A stretch of 64,000 nt of DNA from Chiloscyllium plagiosum (lineage: Eukaryota). Every line of letters begins with the position of its first letter. Within the stretch, counting starts at the first letter, position 1. The position numbers were made by a program, and so were the translations under genes. The DNA is taken from contig NC_057718.1 of NCBI RefSeq assembly GCF_004010195.1, forward strand, positions 54,199,585 through 54,263,584, read 5' to 3'. The notes below the pieces were generated by a model. The model worked only from the letters and a program-made list of their open reading frames with translations, searched no databases and was not told the DNA's origin. Positions 1-59,644 of the stretch are shown in pieces.

Positions 1-990
1 GCAACACTCCCTAGGATCTTACCATTAAGTGTATAAGTCCTGCTAAGATTTGCTTTCCCAAAATGCAGCACCTCGCATTTATCTGAATTAAACTCCATCT
101 ACCACTTCTCAGCCCATTGACCCATCTGATCAAGATCCTGTTGTAATCGGAGGTAACCCTCTTCGCTGTCCACTAAACCTCCAATTTTGGTGTCATCTGT
201 AAACTTACTAACTGTATCTCTTATGCTCGCATCCAAATCATTTATATAAATGACAAAAAGTAGAGGACCAAGCACCAATCCTTGTGGCACTCCACTGGTC
301 ACAGACCTCCAGTCTGAAAAATAACCCTCCACCACCATCCTCTGTCTTCTACCTTTGAGCCTGTTCTGTATCCAAATGGCTAGCTCGCCCTGTATTCCGT
401 GAGATCTAACCTTGCTAATCAGTCTCCCATGCGGAACCTTGTGGAACGCCTTACTGAAGTCCATATAGATCACATCTACCATTCTGTCCTCATCAATCCT
501 CTTTGTTACTCCCTCAAAAAACTCTATCAAGTTTGTGAGACGTGATCTTCCACACACAAAGCCATGTTGACTATCCCTAATCAGTCCTTGCCTTTCCAAA
601 TACATGTACATCCTGTCCCTCAGGAATCTCTCCAACAACTTGTCCACCACTGACGTCAGGCTCACTGGTCTATAGTTCCCTGGCTTGTCCTTACCACCCT
701 TCTTAAACAGTGGCACCACGTTTGCCAACCTCCAGTCTTCCGGCACCTCACCTGTGACTATTGATGATACAAATATCTCAGCAATCACTTCTCTAGCTTC
801 CCACAGAGTTATAGGGTACTCCTAGATTTATCCACCTTTACCCATTTCAAGACATCCAGCACTTCCTCCTCTGTAACATGATCATTCTGCAAGATGTCAC
901 CATTGATTTCCCTACAGTCTACATCTTCCATATCCTTTTCCACAGTAAATACTGATGCAAAATACTCATTTTGTATCTCCCCCATTTTCT
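1..990 (-). mobile_element. CR1/HER1-type LINE fragment, reverse transcriptase region
   Basis: ORF 99..788 has CR1 RT motifs: VPEDWRLANVVPLFKKG, PGNYRPVSLTS, YMDFSKAF, SGVPQG, KFTDDTK. Confidence 0.92.
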
Positions 991-50723: not shown

Positions 50724-50848
50724 TGAGAACTCCACAGAGGCCAGTATCTCGTCACCAAGTCACCCTTTATTTACACATGGAGATTGATACTGATTCAACT
50801 TCCTCAGAGTCAGTTCACAGCATGAACAGATGACTGATGCTCCAGTTT
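50724..50848 (-). repeat. Partial Gypsy LTR (copy 1), interrupted by Tx1
   Basis: Aligns with 51999-52117 and 57923-58034 (accaagtcaccctttatttacacatgg). Confidence 0.8.
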
Positions 50849-50886
50849 CCTTTTTTCTTTTTTTCTATTCAAGACTCTCCTGTTTA

Positions 50887-51821
50887 TTTTTATTCTTTCC
50901 CCCTTTTTTCCCCCTAACTGCGGTAGTGCTTATTTTTTCCCCAGCACCCATGTTGTGTGTGTGCAGGTGTGACACACAGTAAAAGACACAAGGTGCATGA
51001 ATCTTTATTCAGTTTCCACCACCGGGAAGAAAGGAAACACCCGAGTGGCCTATGACAAGCAGTGCCCTTCACATCAAAGGGCAATACTGTGTGATCAATC
51101 AGTGAAGGGGAGGACAGGGAATAAATCAAAATAGAGTTTGATGGGGAAATAATGCTCTCCCCTCCCTGCGGCGCCCACCTCTCCCTGAACAACTCCAGGG
51201 TGTTAGTGGACACCGCGTGCTCCTTCTCCAAGGACACCCGGGCTCTAATGTAACCGCGGAAGAGGGGCAGGCAGTCGGCCCTAACGACCCCCTCCACGGC
51301 CCGCTGCCTGGACCTGTTTATGGCAAGTTTGGCCAGGCCCAGGAGCAGACCCACGAAGAGGTCTTCAGACCTGCCCTTCCTCCTCCGTACCGGGTGCCCG
51401 AAGATCAGGAGTGTGGGACTGAAGTGCAACCAAAAGCAGAGGAGGAGGTTTTTAAGAAAATCAAAAAGGGAGTGCAAATGCCCACACCCAATATACACGT
51501 GGTCCACAGAGTCCACAGCACCACAGAACAAACAGCTGGGCTGGGAGTCCGGGAACCACCGCAATCTGCAGTTGCAGGGGACCGCTGCGTGCAGCACCCT
51601 CCCCGCCAGATCCCTGAGAGAAAGGGGGAGGACTCCCGCGTAGAGAGCCCTCCACTGGGGATCCCCACCGCCCGGTGGCAAATGGGCACGCCAAGGTGTG
51701 TCCGGATGGTGGATGAGGGAGGAGAGGTGGACGGTGTGCAGCAGCAGTCGATACAGGGCCCACCTTTTTACGTCCTTAAAAGGTAGAAAACTAAAATTCC
51801 GGAGGCGGCTCAGGTTGTAGG
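50887..51821 (-). mobile_element. Tx1/L1-type non-LTR retrotransposon 3' fragment (copy 1)
   Basis: ORF 50914..51681 has the C-terminal CCHC-like domain (WRALY..LHAAV..CLFCGAVDSVDHVYIGC..LAKLAI); A-rich tail. Confidence 0.85.
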
Positions 51822-52117
51822 GATGCTCCTGTTTATTTTTTCTTATGACAAGGAATTTGTCAAGCTATGAGAGTGTGCTCCAGATCATCTAATCATTGGA
51901 AGGGAATTTTCTGTTAAGGATTTTTAATTTTTTACATGTTCAGTAGGGCAGATATAGTGACGATATCTACATTTGTGAAGAAGTCCAAAGTCAGGGGCTG
52001 AAGTAACTCCAAAGAGACCGGTATCCCATCACCAAGTCACCCTTTATTTACACATGGAATTTACTTGACATTGCTCCACCTCCCTCAGAGCCAGCTCTCA
52101 GAGTGAACAGAAGGCCT

Positions 52118-52914
52118 GTTTTTTTTCCTGCGGTAGTGCTTATTTTTTCCCCAGCACCCATGGTGTGTGTGTGTGTAGGTGAGAGACACAAGGTATACGA
52201 ATCTTTATTCAATTTCCACCACCAGGAAGATAGGAAAACACCCGGTGGCCAGTGACAAGCAGTGCCCTTCACAAAAAAGGGCAGTGCTGTGTGATCAAAA
52301 CAGTGAAGGGGAGGGTAGGGACTAAATAAAAATAGAATTGGAGGGGGAAATAATGCACTCCACTCCCTGCAGCACCCACCTCTCCCTGAACATCTCCGTG
52401 GCGTCCACCAACACCCTGTGCTCCTTCTCCAAGGACACCCGGGCTCTAACGTAACCGCGGAAGAGGAGCAGGCAGTCGGCCCTAACGACCCCCTCCACGG
52501 CCCGCTGCCTGGACCTGTTTATGGCCAGTTTGGCCAGGCCCAGGAGCAGACCCACGAGGAGGTCTTCAGACCTGCCCTCCCTCCTCTGTATGGTCCACGG
52601 ACTCCACAGCACCACAGAACAAGCAGTTGGGCTGGGAGTCCGTGAATCACCGCAGTCTGCGGTTGCAGGGGACCGCTGCGTGCAGCACTCTCTCCCCCAG
52701 ATCCCCCTGAGAGAAAGGGGGAGGTTTCCCGCGTAGAGAGCCCTCCACTGGGGATCCCCACCGCCCAGTGGCAAATGGGCACGCCAAGGCGTGTCCAGAC
52801 CGTGGATGAGGGAAGAGAGGTGGACGGTGTGCAGCAGCAGTCTATACAGGGCCCATCTTTTTATGTTCTTAAAAGAGACAAAATTAAAATTCCGGAGGCG
52901 GCTCAGGTTGTGGG
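52118..52914 (-). mobile_element. Tx1/L1-type 3' fragment (copy 2) inside the Gypsy 3' LTR
   Basis: Highly similar to 50887-51821, with an internal deletion near 52590 and the same 5' end. Confidence 0.85.
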
Positions 52915-53820
52915 GATGCTCCTGTTTATATCTGTCAGCCACACTCCCTGATTGGACCAAATTAATAGAACCAGTCAGGGCACTCATTCCATGAGGTCCA
53001 CCTGACTAACCTCATTCCAATCACTACATCCTTCTCCCACTGATTCCAAGGACATAGGTTGGTTCCTTTTAGTAGCTCTTCATGAGGTATTTTAGCACCA
53101 GGTCAAGTTCATCCAACTCCACCACTGATATAGGCAGTATGTAACACGCAGTAGATCACCTCTTGTGCCTGGAGCGTCTCAGAAGGAGCTCATTCTCCTC
53201 TTCAACTGGAGAAGGCATCAAGACGGCGACATCTCTGTGTCTATCTCAGATTCTGAGGTATCTTCAATACTTGGAGAGGGAAAACCCAGGCACATTTTGC
53301 TTCTGCAACGTTTGCAGTTTTCATATGCTCCTTGTGCTTGTTCAGAACATTCGTGACCCAACCCAAATTTTATACATCACTGGAACGAACCTCACATCAT
53401 ACATGCCTCTTACCCATGCAGCTTCATTCCCTGGTGGTTTCTTCCCCAATATTTGTCCCCTGAAATAAGTTGTCTCTCTCACTTAGCAGAGCCTTTTGAC
53501 CAGCACTGGAGTTCCTGATGCTGTTTCACCCTCCATCAAGGCCTAGGAATATCAGATTTAACCTGGTGCGGAGTCTTCTCCCCATTAGCAATTCTTCTGG
53601 AGCTATCCGTGTAGTTGATTGAAGGGTGGCCCTAAAATCAAATAGGAACCGGGACAATTTGGTATTTAGTGAAGCAGTGGACTGTTTCTTCAAGCCTGCC
53701 TTCAAGGTTTCTGCCAGTCTATTGGATGATGGATGGTATGAAGCTATCCTGACATGATGAGTACCATTCACCTTTAGGAAATTCTTGAATTCCCTACTGA
53801 TAAGTGATGGCCTGTTATCC

Positions 53821-54381
53821 TAGCAGAGCGCTTTAGGGAACATCTCCGAGACACCCACACCAATCAACCAAACCGCCCCGTAGCCCAACATTTCAACTCC
53901 CCCTCCCACTCTGCCGAGGACATAGAGGTCCTGGGCCTCCTTCACCGCCGCTCCCTCACCACCAGACACCTGGAGGAAGAACGCCTCATCTTCCGCCTCG
54001 GAACACTTCAACCCCCCCCAGGTCATCAATGTGGACTTCAACAGCTTCCTCATTTCCCCTTCCCCCACCTCATCCTAGTTTCAAACTTCCAACCCGCACT
54101 GTCCCCTTGACCTGTCCGGACTTGTCCGACCTGCCTAGCTCCTTTTTCACCTATCCACTCCACCCTCTCCTCCCTGACCTATCACCTTCATCTCCTCCCC
54201 CACTCACCTATTCTACTCTATGCTACTTTCTCCCCACCCCCACCCTCCTCTAGCTTATCTTTCCACGCTTCAGGCTCTCTGCCTTTATTCCTGATGAAGG
54301 GCTTTTGCCTGAAACGTCGATTTTGCTGCTTGTCGGATGCTGCCTGAACTGCTGTGCTCTTCCAGCACCACTAATCCAGAA
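53821..54381 (+). mobile_element. Penelope-like element (GIY-YIG C-terminus plus terminal repeat) inserted in the Gypsy integrase
   Basis: FREHLRDT..PVAQHFNSPSHS..LEEERLIFRLGTLQP; hammerhead motif at about 54287-54322. Confidence 0.85.
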
Positions 54382-55286
54382 TCTGTGACCAACACTTGTG
54401 GGAGTCTGTGTATTGCGAAAGGTGCATGCGTTTTTCTATTTTCTTCTCTGTATTTGATGAATGAACTGTACATCCAGCCATTTTGAGTGGGCGAGCACAT
54501 GACTAAGAACACTGAACCAGTGATAGGACCTGTACAGCTGACTTGTAACCGAGTCCAGAGTTTTCCCAGTCAATCTCACAAATGTCGGGAAGCTGCGGGC
54601 AGTAATTTTTGTTCTTGTTGGTATTCTGGACACTGCCCCACCAATGTGGCTATGTCTGCATCAAATCCTGACCATTACACATAACTTCTCACCAACATCT
54701 TCATTTTGGAAACTTCTGCATGATCCTTGTTCAGCCAGTATTTGGCAGCAACCTTTGCTCAAGACAATCACTCTTGCATCCCATAATAATATGGCATCCT
54801 CTATTGTGATCTGGTCTCTCCAAAAAGGTTTCAGTTTTTGTTATGATGACCTTTTGGTTTCTTCCATCGCCACCAGCTGCTCCAGATGTGTCAGGACCTT
54901 TCTGTGTTCAAAGTCTGATATTGTCAGCTGTGACTGGAAATGTGGCCAGAAAATTTAATACTATGACGGAATTTTCCAGTGGCAGTACCACTGGTGGTGT
55001 ATCTGCCAGTGGGAGGGGACTCAATGTTTCCGCATTTGCTACTTGGCCTCCTGGACTGTGTTCTAACTTGTAATTATACTCACTTAGTATTAGAGCCCAC
55101 CATTAAATTTGGGCTGAAGCTATGGGCAGCACTGTCTTGTCCTCTTTAACTGGACCTAGCAGGGGCTTGTGATCCATAATTATTACAAATTTATGTTCAT
55201 AAAGGTATTGGTGAAATTTCCTGACTCCAGATATGACCATCAAACTTTCTTTCTCTATCTGGGCATTTTTATGCTCTGCATTAGCA

Positions 55287-55600
55287 GTAGATTAGATTAG
55301 ATTACAGTGTGGAAACAGGCCCTTCGGCCCAACAAGTCCACACCGACCCGCCGAAGCGAAACCCACCCATACTCCTACATTTACCCCCTACCTAACACTA
55401 CGGGCAATTTAGCATGGCCAATTGACCTAACCCTGCACATCTTTGTGACTGTGGGAGGAAACCGGAGCACCCGGAGGAAACCCACGCAGACACGGGGAGA
55501 ATGTGCAAACTCCACACAGTCAGTCGCCTGAGTCGGGAATTGAACCCGGGTCTCAGGCGCTGTGAGGCAGCAGTGCTAACCACTGTGCCACCGTGCCGCC
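55287..55600 (-). mobile_element. Young HE1-type SINE inside Gypsy RNase H
   Basis: CpG-rich intact tRNA head and (TCTAA)n tail. Confidence 0.92.
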
Positions 55601-58034
55601 CACTTGTAGTCCTAGATACAAATGTTGTTGAGTATTCCTCTCCATTGCACCATCTGTGAGCTAATACGACCCCAATACTGCATGGTGAGTCATCGTTTGT
55701 CAATACTAGGTCTCCCTTGGGGTTATAGTGTGCCAAGACCTTAGAGTATGATAACTGTTTCTTCACTTCTCTGAAAGCGCTGGCTTGGCTACACGACCAT
55801 TTCCAAGGCTGGCTTTTTTTTTAAGAGTTGATGCAAAGGTCCCAGGTTATAGGCCAGGTTATATATGAACTTTCCATTAAAATACATCAGCCATAGGAAA
55901 GACCTAAGCTCCAGGACAGATGTGGGAGCCTTTGATCACCCTCACTTTATTTTCTAATGGATTTAACCCAGTTATCTTGACTCTGTAGCCCAATTAGGTC
56001 ACTTGGGTGCCTGGAACACACATTGTTCCCTCCTAAGGTGTACAACTACCTGTGAGAAATGGCTAAAGTTTATGTCCAAGTTCTTTAAGTGCTCCTTATT
56101 GGTTTTCCCTGTTATTAGCATATCATCCAGATAAATGGGGATCTGGGGTAGACCTTATAAAATGTTCTCCAACATCCACTGAAAAATTACACAGGCTGAC
56201 GTTACCCCAAATGGTACAAACTGTTATGGGTACTAATTGTGGCAACCTCTGGGAAGCCTCATCCAACCATAATTGAAAGTATGCATGGCTCATGTTCAGC
56301 TTCATGAAGGACAGTCCACCTGCCAGTTTTGCATATAACTCCACAATGCAAAGGTTTGGGTTTTTATCCAGTTGTGAGAAGCGGCTTACTGTTTGGTTAA
56401 AATCCTCACAAAGACAGATCGACATGTCAGGCTTCACAATCAGTATGACTGGTGCTGCCCATTCCACAAACAGGACTGATCTGATGATTCCTTTGCTTTC
56501 CAGCCTTCTGATTTCTGCCACTACTTTTGCCAATAAGGCAAATAGCACTAGGCAAACCTTGCAGAATAATGAAATAGCTTCCTGCTTAACATGCAAGGTG
56601 GCCTTGGCTTCTTTGATAGTCCCTAGACCTTCCTGAAAAACTTCCAGGTATTTAATTAGGACTTCACTCAGATAGCCATTTTCTAATCAAAAAGTGTTGA
56701 GCCAATGCAAGTGAATTTTCATCAACCAATTTCAGGCCATTAAGTTTGAGCCTTTTACTACAATCAGTGGTAACTGAACTAACTGCTTCTCATAAGAGAC
56801 CGGAACTAAAGCTGTCCCCCTAGTCTATGAAGGTTCCACAGTATAAGTTCTCAGTCTAGCTGAGACCTTGCACAAACTTAAGGATTGGAGTCCAGAGAAC
56901 GTTTTGTGAAAGACTGACTCTGTAATCACTGAAACAGTTGGATCTGTGTCAATTTCCATTAGAACCAGGTGACCATTTAACCAAATGTTTGTTCTGATTA
57001 GTTCTGATTTAGGCATTGCCACATAATCCATCTGTTCCAAAGCAGACATTGTTGGACTTTCCAGGGTGTACACTCTCCTGGATACTGACCTATTAGTTCC
57101 TTTACTCCATTTTAGTTTAGTGGGACTCTTTTGCTCTCTTGAGTCTGCATACTGACAGCAACTACAATAGTTTGCTGAAGAAAATGTTAACCATTTGGTC
57201 AAGGCTTGGTTTCGTTTTGGACTTTTCCTGTGAACTGACCTAGAGTTCCTCTGTTCAGGATATGTCTGAGTGAGGCTATGCAATTGCCTTCAGTCAAGTG
57301 GTGTTCGCCAAGCTCAGTCAGACTGGCAAGAGTGTGGAGTTCCATCCAAATACCCTGCAACTCATATGCTCCACTTTCCACATTTTCCAACGACAAAGTT
57401 GTGGTGCCTGTTTGAAGTCCAGTTGGGCTTCAACTAGTTGACTTTTTGATGGTTACATCATTAATCCCACAAACCAAATGGTCTCTCAGCATCTCATTAA
57501 GGGTTAAACAAAAGTCACATGCATCTGCTAGCCATTTTAATCTAGTCAAAAATCCTGATACTGATTCCCCTGGTTCTTGAATTGCTGAATAAACCAATAG
57601 CACCTCAGAATTAGAGGATGCTTGGTGTCATATAATTCCTTAATTAAGTCCGTCAACTGTTGAAAGTTTTAGCATCTGGTACTTCAGGGAATGTTAGGCT
57701 CCTAATAACTAAAAAACTGCAGATCCACAAGCTTTCAGGAGAATTAATCATTGCTTTTCATCTGCTCCAATGTAATTTGCCTAAAAAAAATGCATTCTTT
57801 CCTCATACTGGATCCAGGCTTCGACAGCAGGATCGAACAAGTCAGGCTACCCAAATAACACTATTACGCCAAAAATGCTTACCCCAACTCTCTTCAGGAG
57901 CATGCTTTTCTCCCATTGCCACTGAAATAACTCCACAGTGGCCAAGTCACCCTTGATCTACTTATGGAGAGTCCTTGACACTGATGCAGTTCCTCCAGAG
58001 CCAGCTCTCAAAATGAACAGGTAGTCTGACACTC

Positions 58035-58577
58035 ATGCAACTCTGGTCTCCTTCCTATCAGAAGGATGTTGTGAAATTTGAAAGGGTTCAGAAAAGATTT
58101 ACAAGAATGTTGCCAGGGTTGAAGGATTTGAGCAATAGGGAGAGGTTAAATAGGCCGGGGTTGTTTTCTCTGGAGTGTCGGAGGCTGAGGGGTGACCTTA
58201 TAGAGGTTTATAAGATCATAAGGGGCATGGATAAGATAAATAGACAAAGTCTTTTCCCTGGGGTGGGAGAGTCCAGAACTAGAGGGGCATCGGTTTAAGG
58301 TGAGAGGGGAAAGACATAAAAGACACCTAAGAGGCAACTTTTTCACACAGAGGTTGGTGCTTGTATGGAATGAGCTGCCAGAGGAAGTGGTGGAGGCTGG
58401 TACAATTGCAACATTTAAGAGGCATTTGGATGGGTCTATGAATAGTAAGGGTTTGGAGGGATATGGGCCAGGTGCAGGCAAGTGGGATTACATGGGTTGG
58501 GATATCTGGTCGACATGGACAAGTTGGACTAAAGGGTCGTTACCATGCTGTACATTTCGATGACTCTATGGCTCTAT
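58035..58577 (+). mobile_element. 5'-truncated CR1 inside the Gypsy 5' LTR
   Basis: QLWSPSYQKDVVKFERVQKRFTRM; gactctatg tail. Confidence 0.9.
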
Positions 58578-58581
58578 GTTC

Positions 58582-58830
58582 TTTTTTTTTGACACTTCTT
58601 TTTTTTTAAAACCCCCACACTACCGCCTAACTGCGGTAGTGCTTATTTGGCTCTATGTTCATTTTTTTTTTTTTTTATTTTATTAAACAAATTACAAAAC
58701 AGTTTACAAAAAAAAACATTGACAGCTGTACACAAAAGACAGCAATTTTACAAGGGAGAGGAGCAGCAAAGCTAGGCCCTGAACCCTACCGTTCAACCAA
58801 TTTACAGGGAGAGGAGGACAAACCTCAAAT
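58582..58830 (-). mobile_element. Two stacked poly(A)-tailed L1/Tx1 3' stubs (58582-58648; 58661-58830)
   Basis: Three copies of ggctctatgttc (58570, 58649, 58831). The first stub matches the Tx1 3' end ctaactgcggtagtgcttattt. Confidence 0.8.
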
Positions 58831-59644
58831 GGCTCTATGTTCATATCTGTCAGGCAGGGCTCCCTGATTGGATAAAAGTAACAGCAGCAATCAGGGAACT
58901 CATACTCTATGAGATCCATCTAGCTGGCCTCATTACAATGATTAAAATCAGCTAATAGTTCCTTTCAGTTCACTGTCAAAATAAACCTCCAGACTTTGCA
59001 ATCAGGTTTGTACACCTAAGTGTTAGAATTAGAATTAGGATTGGAATTGGGATCTGAATTAGATTTTAGAATTTAGTCTTTAGAATTAGATTTTACTGTC
59101 ACGTGTATTCAAGCACAGGGATACAGGACTACAGTGAAATATGAACAAAATTTCCATTCTCCATTGCCATTGTATGTAAAAAAAAACAATTTAACAGAAG
59201 CAACCATCTTAGATACAAAAACAAACAGAAATATAAGAAACAGAGACAAGAAGAAAGGAAAAACCAATTATAATTTTCAGATGAGAATTTCAAACTGGTG
59301 ACAACATAACATAACGGCCCTGAGAGAATGACTTTTACATTTGTACATTTATTGTCCAGAATAATGCTTCAAATGTCAAAGGTGCTGATGCAAGAAATAA
59401 ATAATTCTTTCATCATTACATTATACCTGCTCCCAAAGGTACATTTATCTTAACAGAAATAAAGTGCATGAAATATTAACACGCTGCTCAGACAATAGGA
59501 TGTTAGGCTACTGTATCACTCTGTGCAAATAGAGAAATAATCTTTGTCAACTGAAAAAACAGGGAAGCCAAGAAGTTAAATGTGCATTGCTTTGACTGAG
59601 AGCTGAGAGATTTGGAAGCACTCCACAATGCTGAAATTGACTAG

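What the first reader, a model, noticed from the sequence alone, without database searches (positions are those of the whole stretch)
50724..58946. Candidate site-specific Tx1-type retrotransposon that targets the TATA box of a Gypsy LTR
Seen: all three copies of one Gypsy LTR family (50724, 51999, 57923) are broken at the same position, ga(c/t)(a/g)ctcctgttt|atatctgtcag. On the LTR sense strand this is within GATATAAACAGGAG, the presumed TATA box. The inserts are poly(A)-tailed Tx1/L1-type pieces, all in the LTR's orientation: 50887-51821, 52118-52914, 58582-58648 and 58661-58830. They are flanked by target repeats (gatgctcc(a/t)gttt at 50836 and 51822, with the right-hand copy also at 52915; ggctctatgttc three times). 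I saw no Tx1 piece elsewhere in the 64 kb. Established: the Tx1 clade includes sequence-specific APE-endonuclease elements (Xenopus Tx1L in a DNA transposon; Keno, Mutsu and Dewa in RNA-gene repeats). Inference: this family parasitises another retrotransposon's promoter, using a multicopy safe harbour and probably disabling the host LTR. I do not know of a description of this target.
Basis: partly seen in the sequence, partly recalled or inferred. Interest (0 to 1): 0.88.

Follow-up and report, generated by a model that had tools for sequence, protein, structure and literature searches.

The report
LINE that targets an LTR's TATA box
A family of jumping genes related to the frog element Tx1 lands again and again at one exact spot, the presumed TATA box of another jumping gene's LTR, which adds a new target to a known group of site-choosing LINEs.

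Summary
The inserts at 50887-51821, 52122-52914 and 58582-58648 belong to one non-LTR family. Its best named relative is Xenopus Tx1L ORF2 (44% identity over 95% of a 653-aa ORF), and it has an APE-type endonuclease. Copies were picked only by similarity to the LINE part. Of 29 such copies, 11 abut the R-U5 half of this LTR and 15 show the LTR or its 11-base target word; random DNA shows the word in 1.5% of windows. Conversely, 7 of 39 LTR copies carry a family fragment exactly at TGTTTA|TATCTG and 30 are intact. Matching local TSD variants, and LTR flanks more diverged than the adjoining LINE (78.9% against 91.5%, 27 of 27 pairs), exclude one duplicated insertion. A second, young poly(A) family (58661-58830) shares the site. 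The target element is Ty3/Gypsy-like. The middle "LTR copy" looks like a half LTR carried in by 3' transduction. Tx1 families preferring LTR retrotransposons are already mentioned for crocodilians (PMC4494074), and this scan noted the same site elsewhere in this genome. Verdict: real, and a new member of a known kind.

The parts
50724..50849 (-). R-U5 half of the resident 3' LTR, ending in the left TSD copy (gatgctccagttt, 50836-50848)
   Evidence: 76-79% identity to the other R-U5 halves. Its TSD variant matches those at 51822 and 52915.
50850..50872 (-). 23-nt T-rich mini-insert, a poly(A)-type stub, followed by a TSD copy at 50873-50886
   Evidence: Read. It lies between two copies of the target word.
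50887..51821 (-). Tx1 family-1 copy A: tail, 3' UTR and the C-terminal part of ORF2, 5' truncated. A TSD copy follows at 51822-51835.
   Evidence: ORF 50914-51864. 43% identity to Xenopus Tx1 ORF2 residues 1059-1291, E 1e-40. 90-92% identity to genome-wide copies.
51836..52914 (-). Probable 3'-transduction unit. It holds a T-run and a few nt (51836-51846), 153 nt of foreign low-copy flank (51846-51998), a foreign R-U5 half LTR (51999-52121) and Tx1 family-1 copy B with its tail (52122-52914; internal deletion relative to A).
   Evidence: The flank has 3 places in the genome. The flank plus half LTR is contiguous at C36 and C43. In the window the homology stops at a T-run next to the TSD. Inference.
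52915..53030 (-). Right TSD copy (52915-52928) and the U3 half of the resident 3' LTR, with a CCAAT-like box (ctgattgg, 52948) and the LTR start next to a polypurine tract
   Evidence: 83-86% identity to 40 scored copies, out of 2015 first-look candidates.
53031..57922 (-). Decayed internal region of a Ty3/Gypsy-like element, with RT-like, RNase H and integrase-like ORFs in that order, nested repeats, and a PBS-like TGG next to 57922
   Evidence: Pfam RT_RNaseH and RT_RNaseH_2 hits. The RT ORF 56123-56686 is 43% identical to P0179, whose best solved relatives are Ty3 RT.
57923..58037 (-). R-U5 half of the 5' LTR
58038..58578 (+). 3' piece of another LINE (CR1-like by recall), in the opposite orientation, ending 3 nt before the Tx1 site
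   Evidence: Read. The family name is recalled, not tested. A like piece abuts the same site in L079.
58570..58842 (-). Stack at the 5' LTR: TSD ggctctatgttc (58570), a 67-nt family-1 3' stub (58582-58648), TSD (58649), a family-2 piece (58661-58830), TSD (58831)
58843..58946 (-). U3 half of the 5' LTR
   Evidence: 77% identity to 52923-53026.

Best explanation
A Tx1-clade non-LTR retrotransposon family (APE endonuclease, RT, C-terminal CCHC) inserts by target-primed reverse transcription. It strongly prefers one site in the roughly 250-bp LTR of a Ty3/Gypsy-like family. On the LTR sense strand the site is CTGACAGATA^TAAACAGGAGTGTC, inside the presumed TATA box, 23 nt after a CCAAT-like box and 88 nt before an AATAAA. 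The element's endonuclease nicks the antisense strand after ...CCTGTTTA. The exposed TTTA end primes on the A-rich tail, and the second nick falls 12-14 nt away. Each insert is therefore in LTR orientation and flanked by a TSD that rebuilds the target, so inserts stack. The choice is made mainly by the protein (inferred). Older subfamilies and a second, young poly(A) family use the same site. About half of the copies land elsewhere, at TTTA-like sites, some of which resemble the longer word. The coordinates, the enrichment, the independence of events and the clade are shown. Nicking specificity, TATA function and any effect on the LTR are inferred.
For: Clade. The natural 653-aa ORF L020:1716-3674(-) has Xenopus YTX2_XENLA as its best named hit (E 9.7e-151, 44% identity, 95% covered). 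Tetraodon and Danio pol-like proteins reach 30-32%, and human L1 ORF2p only E 1e-5 over 175 aa. The APE part of copy L139 is 41% identical to Tx1L residues 47-321, E 4e-64. Genome copies are collinear with Tx1 ORF2 from residue 3 to about 1300.

Forward test. Of 29 copies picked by the LINE part alone, 11 abut the LTR by reading and 11 carry the scripted 11-mer; the union is 15. The control rate is 1.5%. Of 7 divergent copies, 5 are at the site.

Reverse test. Of 39 LTR copies, 7 hold a family-1 fragment plus TSD exactly at ttta|tatctg, 30 are intact and 2 hold other repeats.

Independence. Local TSD variants match on both sides (L012, L024, L071 and the window's 5' LTR). LTR flanks are 78.9% alike against 91.5% for the adjoining Tx1, in 27 of 27 pairs.

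Family 2. Of 20 3' junctions, 12-13 are at the site by reading and 9 by script. Of 16 resolved 5' junctions, 7 are at the site.

Protein-based choice. The transduction unit ends in unrelated flank plus an A-run, yet sits at the site. The off-target TSD gtggacatgcctttta resembles the target word.
Against: About half of the sampled copies are not at the LTR (14 of 29 show neither the LTR nor the word). Seven of 20 family-2 3' junctions and 9 of 16 5' junctions are elsewhere. No nicking assay exists. No RT phylogeny with L1-clade outgroups was run. The samples are the best-scoring 40 of thousands of first-look candidates, not random draws. My classing of flanks by eye differs from the scripted count. 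Two LTR copies carry a CR1-like 3' end at or near the same point (window, L079), which hints at a more general fragile or favoured site. In the natural copy L047 the TATA word is mutated. Conservation of the target block (0.82-0.86) is no higher than that of other LTR blocks.
Confidence: 0.85

Rival explanations
1. All LTR+LINE units descend from one or a few insertions that were then copied, either by retrotransposition of a Gypsy element that carried the LINE piece in its LTR or by segmental duplication.
For: Window copies A and B share the same 5' truncation point and the rare TSD variant gatgctcc. The flank plus half LTR unit recurs at three loci.
Against: Genome-wide copies have different tails, different 5' ends and TSDs matching their own LTR variant. 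LTR flanks are less alike than the adjoining Tx1 in 27 of 27 pairs. Thirty of 39 LTRs are empty. A and B are no more alike (87-91%) than random family members (90-92%).
Confidence: 0.03
2. There is no extended recognition. The family has only an L1-like taste for TTTA/T, and this LTR site is a generally favoured or fragile spot (bent TATA DNA, open chromatin of a promoter) that collects poly(A) retroelements of any kind.
For: Off-site copies sit at TTTA-, TTAA- or ATA-like ends. Two different families use the site. CR1-like 3' ends lie at or within 3 nt of the site in the window and in L079.
Against: The LTR family is a tiny share of a 3.56-Gb genome, yet it takes about 40-65% of sampled insertions at one nucleotide and in one orientation. 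The 11-mer enrichment is 38% against 1.5%. Some off-target TSDs mimic the long word. The closest relative, Tx1L, has a sequence-specific endonuclease (PMC1950540, passages read).
Confidence: 0.07
3. Targeting is guided by RNA. Read-through transcripts of resident copies carry LTR R-U5 sequence at their 3' end, and this pairs with the nicked LTR at new sites, as proposed for some rDNA-specific elements.
For: The unit 51836-52914 suggests that transcripts can read through the Tx1 tail, the R-U5 half and 153 nt of flank. The LTR supplies an AATAAA 88 nt downstream of the site. Kojima 2015 (passages read) cites co-transcription with the target as strengthening specificity in other elements.
Against: Junctions carry A-rich tails directly followed by the TSD. 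The transduction unit's own 3' end was unrelated flank, yet it landed at the site. Family 2 has an unrelated 3' end.
Confidence: 0.05

Closest known systems
Tx1L of Xenopus laevis (type element of the Tx1 clade), inserted in the piggyBac-type DNA transposon Tx1D
   Same: It is the best named relative of the ORF2 (44% identity over the RT-to-C-terminus part, 41% in the endonuclease). It has the same domain order: APE, RT, CCHC. Its target is another mobile element, and it has a sequence-specific endonuclease (PMC1950540 and PMC4494074, passages read).
   Different: The target here is the LTR of a Ty3/Gypsy-like retrotransposon, not a DNA transposon. The preference is strong but not exclusive. 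In the one copy read, the endonuclease hairpin loop aligned to Tx1L's RDGH tip is 3 residues shorter and lacks RDGH.
Tx1-8_Crp and Tx1-4_AMi of crocodilians (Kojima 2015, PMC4494074)
   Same: [quoted passage not shown] They meet that paper's criterion for a target-specific family (more than 20% of flanks), as does the family here.
   Different: The host is a crocodilian, and those families belong to the Keno-related group by that paper's tree. Which LTR elements they target, and at what position, is in supplementary figures that I could not read. Whether a TATA box is hit there is unknown to me.
Tx1-Mar LINEs with SINEU partners in crocodilians (same paper)
   Same: Several Tx1 families and short poly(A) partners share one target in another transposon. 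Copies stack next to each other there too. This is a possible analogue of family 1 plus family 2 here.
   Different: The target there is a Mariner DNA transposon with two preferred regions. Family 2 here has no snRNA head that I saw, and its autonomy is unknown.
Keno, Kibi, Koshi, Mutsu, Dewa (fish Tx1 clade) and R1/R2-type rDNA elements
   Same: They are target-specific LINEs living in multicopy sequences.
   Different: Their targets are RNA genes or microsatellites. The fish Tx1 proteins are only 30-32% identical to this family.
Human L1
   Same: It uses TPRT with an APE endonuclease, a T-rich nick site, poly(A) priming, 5' truncation, TSDs and 3' transduction.
   Different: Its consensus is lax (TTTT/AA) and it has no repeat-specific site. 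Similarity is only E 1e-5 over 175 aa of RT.

Membership tests
Tx1 clade of non-LTR retrotransposons | RT and ORF2 sequence closest to Tx1-clade references (formally, RT phylogeny such as RTclass1) | tested here: inconclusive
   The best named hit is YTX2_XENLA (44% identity, 95% coverage, E 9.7e-151). Fish Tx1-type pol-like proteins reach 30-32%, and human L1 ORF2p E 1e-5. No tree with L1-clade outgroups was built, so the formal test is open even though the similarity is strong.
Tx1 clade of non-LTR retrotransposons | N-terminal APE-type endonuclease in ORF2 | tested here: met
   L139:24-950 is 41% identical to Tx1L residues 47-321 (E 4e-64) and contains GDFN, SRIDH and DH motifs. Pfam Exo_endo_phos scores 23.5 bits, just under the 24.5 cut-off, for this frameshifted partial ORF.
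Tx1 clade of non-LTR retrotransposons | C-terminal cysteine-histidine motif after the RT | tested here: met
   CLFCGAVDSVDHVYIGC is present in window ORF 50914-51864. Pfam zf-RVT scores 22.6 bits, under the 27.5 cut-off, as does Tx1L itself at 21.9 bits.
Tx1 clade of non-LTR retrotransposons | Target preference by Kojima's criterion (one kind of sequence in more than 20% of flanks) | tested here: met
   11 of 29 copies (LTR by reading), 5 of 7 divergent copies, and 7 of 39 LTRs occupied.
Tx1 clade of non-LTR retrotransposons | ORF1 type | tested here: inconclusive
   An upstream ORF in L080 (558-971) has a CCHC knuckle scoring 16.6 bits, under the 20.8 cut-off. Whether it belongs to the element is not shown.
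Ty3/Gypsy LTR retrotransposon (the target) | LTRs with TG...CA ends, a PBS after the 5' LTR and a polypurine tract before the 3' LTR | tested here: met
   Read from the sequence. tgaaataactcc is the outer end in many copies, with unique or PBS-side flanks. TGGCAATGGGAG lies next to 57922, and gggagaagga lies next to the LTR start at about 53030. No flanking TSD of the whole element was found.
Ty3/Gypsy LTR retrotransposon (the target) | pol order RT, RNase H, integrase, and an RT closest to Ty3/Gypsy | tested here: met
   Pfam RT_RNaseH and RT_RNaseH_2 hits at 55103-55820. The RT-like ORF 56123-56686 is upstream and an integrase-like ORF 53526-53819 is downstream (by eye; no Pfam hit). P0179 (43% identical to the RT ORF) hits Ty3 RT 4ol8 at 1.8e-71, against 1e-32 or weaker for retroviral RTs. 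This last link is indirect.
Functional TATA box of the LTR promoter | Transcription starts about 25-30 nt downstream and depends on the motif | not testable with these tools
   Only the layout is seen: a CCAAT-like box, 23 nt, ATATAAAC, 88 nt, AATAAA, about 45 nt, then the LTR end. No RNA data were examined.

The most novel reading that the evidence does not exclude
The Tx1 lineage may have outsourced its transcription signals to its target. It always enters in LTR orientation, and the TSD rebuilds the TATAAAC word. A full-length insert therefore sits about 14 nt behind an intact CCAAT-TATA promoter and about 90 nt ahead of the LTR's AATAAA. The Gypsy LTR would then act as promoter and terminator for the LINE while losing its own R-U5: a LINE that hijacks, rather than merely hides in, another retroelement's promoter. 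The 3'-transduction unit in the window suggests that read-through into R-U5 and beyond does occur.
Probability: 0.2. Interest if true: 0.7.

Novelty: new member of a known kind. Interest (0 to 1): 0.5.

Why it matters
Target-specific LINEs show how a mobile element limits damage to its host. They are also natural models for programmable, RNA-templated insertion. This is a cartilaginous-fish relative of Tx1L with a well-defined 14-base target, empty and filled sites sampled by the dozen, several subfamilies and a possible non-autonomous partner. That gives a good comparative system for asking which endonuclease residues read the DNA, for example the shortened hairpin loop. The site lies in the core promoter of another retrotransposon, so it also bears on conflict or cooperation between transposon classes. 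Insertion splits U3 from R-U5 in nearly a fifth of the sampled LTRs. For genome annotation, it explains the stacked, nested LINE/LTR arrays in this genome.

Tried and rejected
Several lines of work gave nothing or were abandoned.

(1) Searches for a full-length open copy. All ten 10-kb loci held only 1.0-2.2-kb 5'-truncated, decayed copies. The one long copy fetched (L080) reads N over its ORF2 core. I did not pursue that stretch. Its 5' end was not found in 4 kb further upstream.

(2) The search for homologous proteins with the 448-aa C-terminal ORF among longer proteins found nothing. The 653-aa ORF worked.

(3) Pfam on the window's own ORFs gave no hit for the LINE piece, nor for the RT- and integrase-like ORFs of the LTR element. 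PDB searches with those two ORFs gave nothing useful.

(4) I tried to tie family 2 to a Tx1 ORF2 by fetching 3' flanks of 16 ORF2 hits. None carries the family-2 3' end. Only L133 holds an older family-2-like piece with a family-1-type terminal hairpin. Family 2 stays unclassified.

(5) The 9-mer CTCCTGTTT with 2 mismatches was dropped as a test because 21% of random windows match it.

(6) The idea that the target block is the most conserved part of the LTR is not supported. The U3 columns there are also biased by the probe.

(7) The source locus of the transduced unit was not found. C36 holds a different Tx1 3' end and C43 an empty LTR. A longer probe did not bring them up.

(8) Literature. 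Christensen et al. 2000 (PMC85248) is not held. The supplements of PMC4494074 are not readable. A search for Tx1 + TATA box + Gypsy + LTR + target-specific + 'inserted into' (at least 5 of the 6 terms) found 1 unrelated paper. A search for Tx1 + shark + LTR retrotransposon + target showed nothing on this in the 15 listed of 272.

(9) RNA runs (look-up of sequencing runs, read laying), structure prediction and complex prediction were not used.
Full report
WHAT IS IN THE WINDOW. The window is G000:C9:54199585-54263584 of a 3.56-Gb eukaryotic assembly. Earlier notes of this scan call the genome shark-type.

The word gatgctcc(a/t)gttt stands at 50836, 51822 and 52915, and gactctcctgttt at 50873. 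ggctctatgttc stands at 58570, 58649 and 58831, and atatctgtcag at 52928 and 58843.

Three R-U5 halves of one LTR family (50724-50849, 51999-52121, 57923-58037) are 76-79% alike. Two U3 halves (52929-53030, 58843-58946) are 77% alike. Between the halves lie poly(A)-type inserts, all with the T-run on the left. That puts them on the minus strand, the sense strand of the LTR element.

Between the two outer LTRs, the minus strand carries three ORFs in this order: an RT-like ORF (56123-56686), RNase H with Pfam hits (55103-55820), and an integrase-like ORF (53526-53819, by eye). A 750-aa database protein (P0179) is 43% identical to the RT ORF. Its best solved relatives are Ty3 RT and the Ty3 Gag-Pol (E about 2e-71), against 1e-32 or weaker for retroviral RTs. 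The target is therefore a decayed Ty3/Gypsy-like element with LTRs of about 250 bp.

WHAT THE INSERTS ARE. Inserts 50887-51821 and 52122-52914 are 87-91% alike, and 58582-58648 matches their last 26 nt. The minus-strand ORF 50914-51864 ends in a CCHC motif.

A natural 653-aa ORF of another copy (L020) runs from RT motif YADD to the C-terminus. Its best named relative is the Xenopus laevis 'Transposon TX1 149 kDa protein' (44% identity, 95% covered, E 9.7e-151). A sea-turtle protein follows at 43%, and Tetraodon and Danio 'pol-like' proteins at 30-32%. Human L1 ORF2p matches only at E 1e-5 over 175 aa.

The N-terminal part of a further, broken copy (L139) is 41% identical to the Tx1L endonuclease and carries the APE motifs. 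In that alignment the loop that corresponds to the RDGH tip of the Tx1L hairpin is three residues shorter. This is one copy only; the loop's role is taken from passages of PMC1950540.

Searching the genome with the Xenopus protein gives 49741 first-look candidates. The scored copies are collinear from residue 3 to about 1300 at 45-59% identity, and several lie at loci of this family. I did not build a tree with L1-clade outgroups, so formal clade placement rests on similarity.

The piece at 58661-58830 is not this family. Its copies are 96-99% alike (1671 first-look candidates). At least 650 nt from its 3' end are non-coding, with internal repeats of about 100 nt. I could not link it to an ORF2. 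One older variant ends in the family-1-type terminal hairpin.

IS THE SITE PREFERENCE REAL? FORWARD TEST. A search with the LINE part alone (935 nt, no LTR) gave 4724 first-look candidates. The 40 scored are 90-92% identical. I read the 3' junctions of the 29 non-window loci.
- Eleven abut the R-U5 half of this LTR or sit in an array that does: L009, 010, 012, 014, 015, 017, 019, 021, 024, 027, 030.
- L025 has the U3 half at its 5' junction.
- L005, L018, L022 and L029 show the target word without a recognisable LTR.
- The remaining copies lie at unrelated T-rich, TTTA-like sites.

A scripted test was also run. It asked for ACTCCTGTTTA, with up to 2 mismatches, within 110 nt of the junction. 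It finds 11 of 29, against 1.5% of 20000 random windows of this same window. The union of the two criteria is 15 of 29. Of seven more divergent copies found through their ORF2 (71-78% aa identity), five are at the site by reading.

REVERSE TEST. A probe from the U3 half only (2015 first-look candidates, 40 scored, 83-86% identity) gave 39 other LTR copies. I fetched their junctions and read them.
- Thirty are uninterrupted (...ctgacactcctgttta|tatctgtcagcc...), counting variants and one ambiguous case (L052).
- Seven carry a family-1 fragment plus TSD ending exactly at ttta|tatctg: L054, 058, 060, 070, 071, 074, 077.
- One has a SINE-like repeat there (L069, partly N).
- One has a CR1-like 3' end there (L079).

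Every LTR-associated insert seen is in LTR orientation.

INDEPENDENT EVENTS. TSDs follow the local LTR variant on both sides: agattcctgt in L012, gagtcagga in L024, cactcctatttc in L071, and ggctctatgttc in the window's 5' LTR. Tails and 5' ends differ between copies. For 8 LTR-Tx1 junctions at 7 loci, the LTR flanks are on average 78.9% alike and the adjoining 300 nt of Tx1 91.5%. The LTR is the less alike in 27 of 27 pairs. The LINE therefore entered LTR copies that had already diverged. The rival of one copied insertion fails.

Stacks are common: TSD, insert, TSD, insert, and so on. Many loci show two to four 3' ends spaced 300-450 nt apart. This is as expected when the TSD rebuilds the target.

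FAMILY 2 SHARES THE SITE. Of 20 3' junctions, five abut the LTR directly. Seven follow a fragment of family 1 or 2 with the target word. One is uncertain, and seven are elsewhere. The script finds 9 of 20. Of 20 5' flanks, four run on; of the 16 resolved, seven end in TSD plus the U3 half, and the script finds 5 of 20. L101 and L102 are clean examples. One off-target insertion has the TSD gtggacatgcctttta, which resembles gacactcctgttta (L082 with L121). This points to recognition of the longer word.

THE MIDDLE 'LTR COPY'. The 163 nt left of 51999 occur at only three places in the genome. At C36 and C43 the same flank is contiguous with the same R-U5 half (89-91% identity). C43 continues into an intact LTR, and C36 into a different Tx1 3' end. 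C36 and C43 stay alike further left. The window's homology instead stops at about 51846, next to a T-run and the TSD at 51822.

The simplest reading is inference: 51836-52914 is one retrotransposed RNA. That RNA would hold Tx1, its tail, the R-U5 half of its old host LTR, 153 nt of old flank and a new A-run. This is a 3' transduction, inserted at the same site.

The resident 3' LTR is then 50724-50849 plus 52915-53030. Its TSD variants agree (gatgctcc...), and it carries three stacked inserts. This also explains why copies A and B share a 5' end: both were joined to the same target overhang. The source locus was not found. The unit's own 3' end was unrelated flank, yet it hit the site, which argues that the protein, not RNA homology, chooses the target.

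HOW IT MOST LIKELY WORKS. On the window's plus strand the nick falls after ...CCTGTTTA. In most copies the A is kept on the left side. The TTTA 3' end primes on the A-rich tail, and the second nick lies 12-14 nt to the left. Recurrent 5' ends are probably set by microhomology with the constant overhang (window A, B and L019; L029 twice and L036). That last point is inference.

On the LTR sense strand the site is GATA^TAAAC. It lies 23 nt after a CCAAT-like box, 88 nt before an AATAAA, and about 135 nt before the LTR end. This layout fits a TATA box, but no RNA evidence was examined. After insertion the U3 promoter, with a rebuilt TATAAAC, sits 14 nt in front of the insert, and R-U5 lies behind it. 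Whether this silences the LTR or drives the LINE is open.

COMPARISON AND NOVELTY. Target-specific Tx1 elements are well known: Tx1L in Tx1D, Keno, Kibi, Koshi, and Tx1-Mar with SINEU. Kojima 2015 (PMC4494074; abstract and passages read) states in one sentence that Tx1-8_Crp and Tx1-4_AMi prefer specific groups of LTR retrotransposons. The details are in supplements that I could not read.

My literature searches found no description of a TATA-box or LTR-promoter target, nor of such a family in cartilaginous fish. The library lacks most subscription papers and Repbase Reports.

This scan had already noted stacking of a poly(A) retroposon at 'the TATA box of an LTR family' on another piece of the same genome. 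That note left the enzyme family and the target identity untested (e1-7789243). Both are addressed here.

I rate the finding a real, well-documented new member of a known kind, with a testable bolder reading (promoter capture).

LIMITS. The samples are the top-scoring 40 of thousands of candidates. Class counts by eye and by script differ. All copies read are decayed. Family 2 is unclassified. No endonuclease, promoter or RNA data exist here.

Noticed in passing
window 58038-58578 (+); L079: A 3' piece of another LINE (CR1-like by recall, with a tail of ...gactctatggctctatg) ends 3 nt before the Tx1 nick site in the 5' LTR. In L079 a like piece abuts tatctgtcag exactly. That is two CR1-like ends among about 41 LTR copies looked at, which may mean that the site is also favoured by other elements.
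   Followed up: partly
window A/B 5' ends at 51821 and 52914; L019; L029 (two copies) and L036: 5' truncation points recur among independent copies, next to the constant TSD. Microhomology between the target overhang (GGAGC...) and the cDNA is a likely cause.
   Followed up: partly
P0001; P0164: Sea-turtle proteins (Lepidochelys olivacea, Caretta caretta; unnamed products) are 60% (in 18 stretches) and 43% identical to this ORF2 part. That is as close as, or closer than, Xenopus Tx1. The relation between the reptile and fish lineages was not examined.
   Followed up: no
P0178: A stingray gene model named 'von Willebrand factor A domain-containing protein 7-like' matches 9% of the ORF at 77% identity. 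It is probably a Tx1 fragment absorbed into a gene prediction.
   Followed up: no
L025; L117: Two inserts have one junction in the internal region of the Gypsy-like element (near the equivalents of window 57640 and 56600) rather than in the LTR. In L025 the other junction is at the usual U3 site, which suggests a deletion of about 370 bp at insertion or later.
   Followed up: no
window 55290-55610, 53820-54390; L069, L074: SINE-like repeats are nested in the Gypsy-like internal region. The same repeat type lies next to the LTR site in L069 and L074.
   Followed up: no
window 207-776 (-): A weak match (23% identity, E 2e-4) to the RT part of Xenopus Tx1 ORF2. It is probably a different, distant non-LTR element.
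   Followed up: no
L080 1-573 and 558-971: Upstream of the long copy lie proline-rich repeats and an ORF with a CCHC zinc knuckle (below the Pfam cut-off), possibly ORF1 and the 5' region. No LTR U3 half was found in 6.3 kb upstream.
   Followed up: partly
L080 3' flank; L072, L124, L129: A divergent LTR subfamily (…tatataaccgggggattaaaatctcctcag… and relatives) is also hit at the corresponding TATA position. The preference therefore spans LTR subfamilies.
   Followed up: partly
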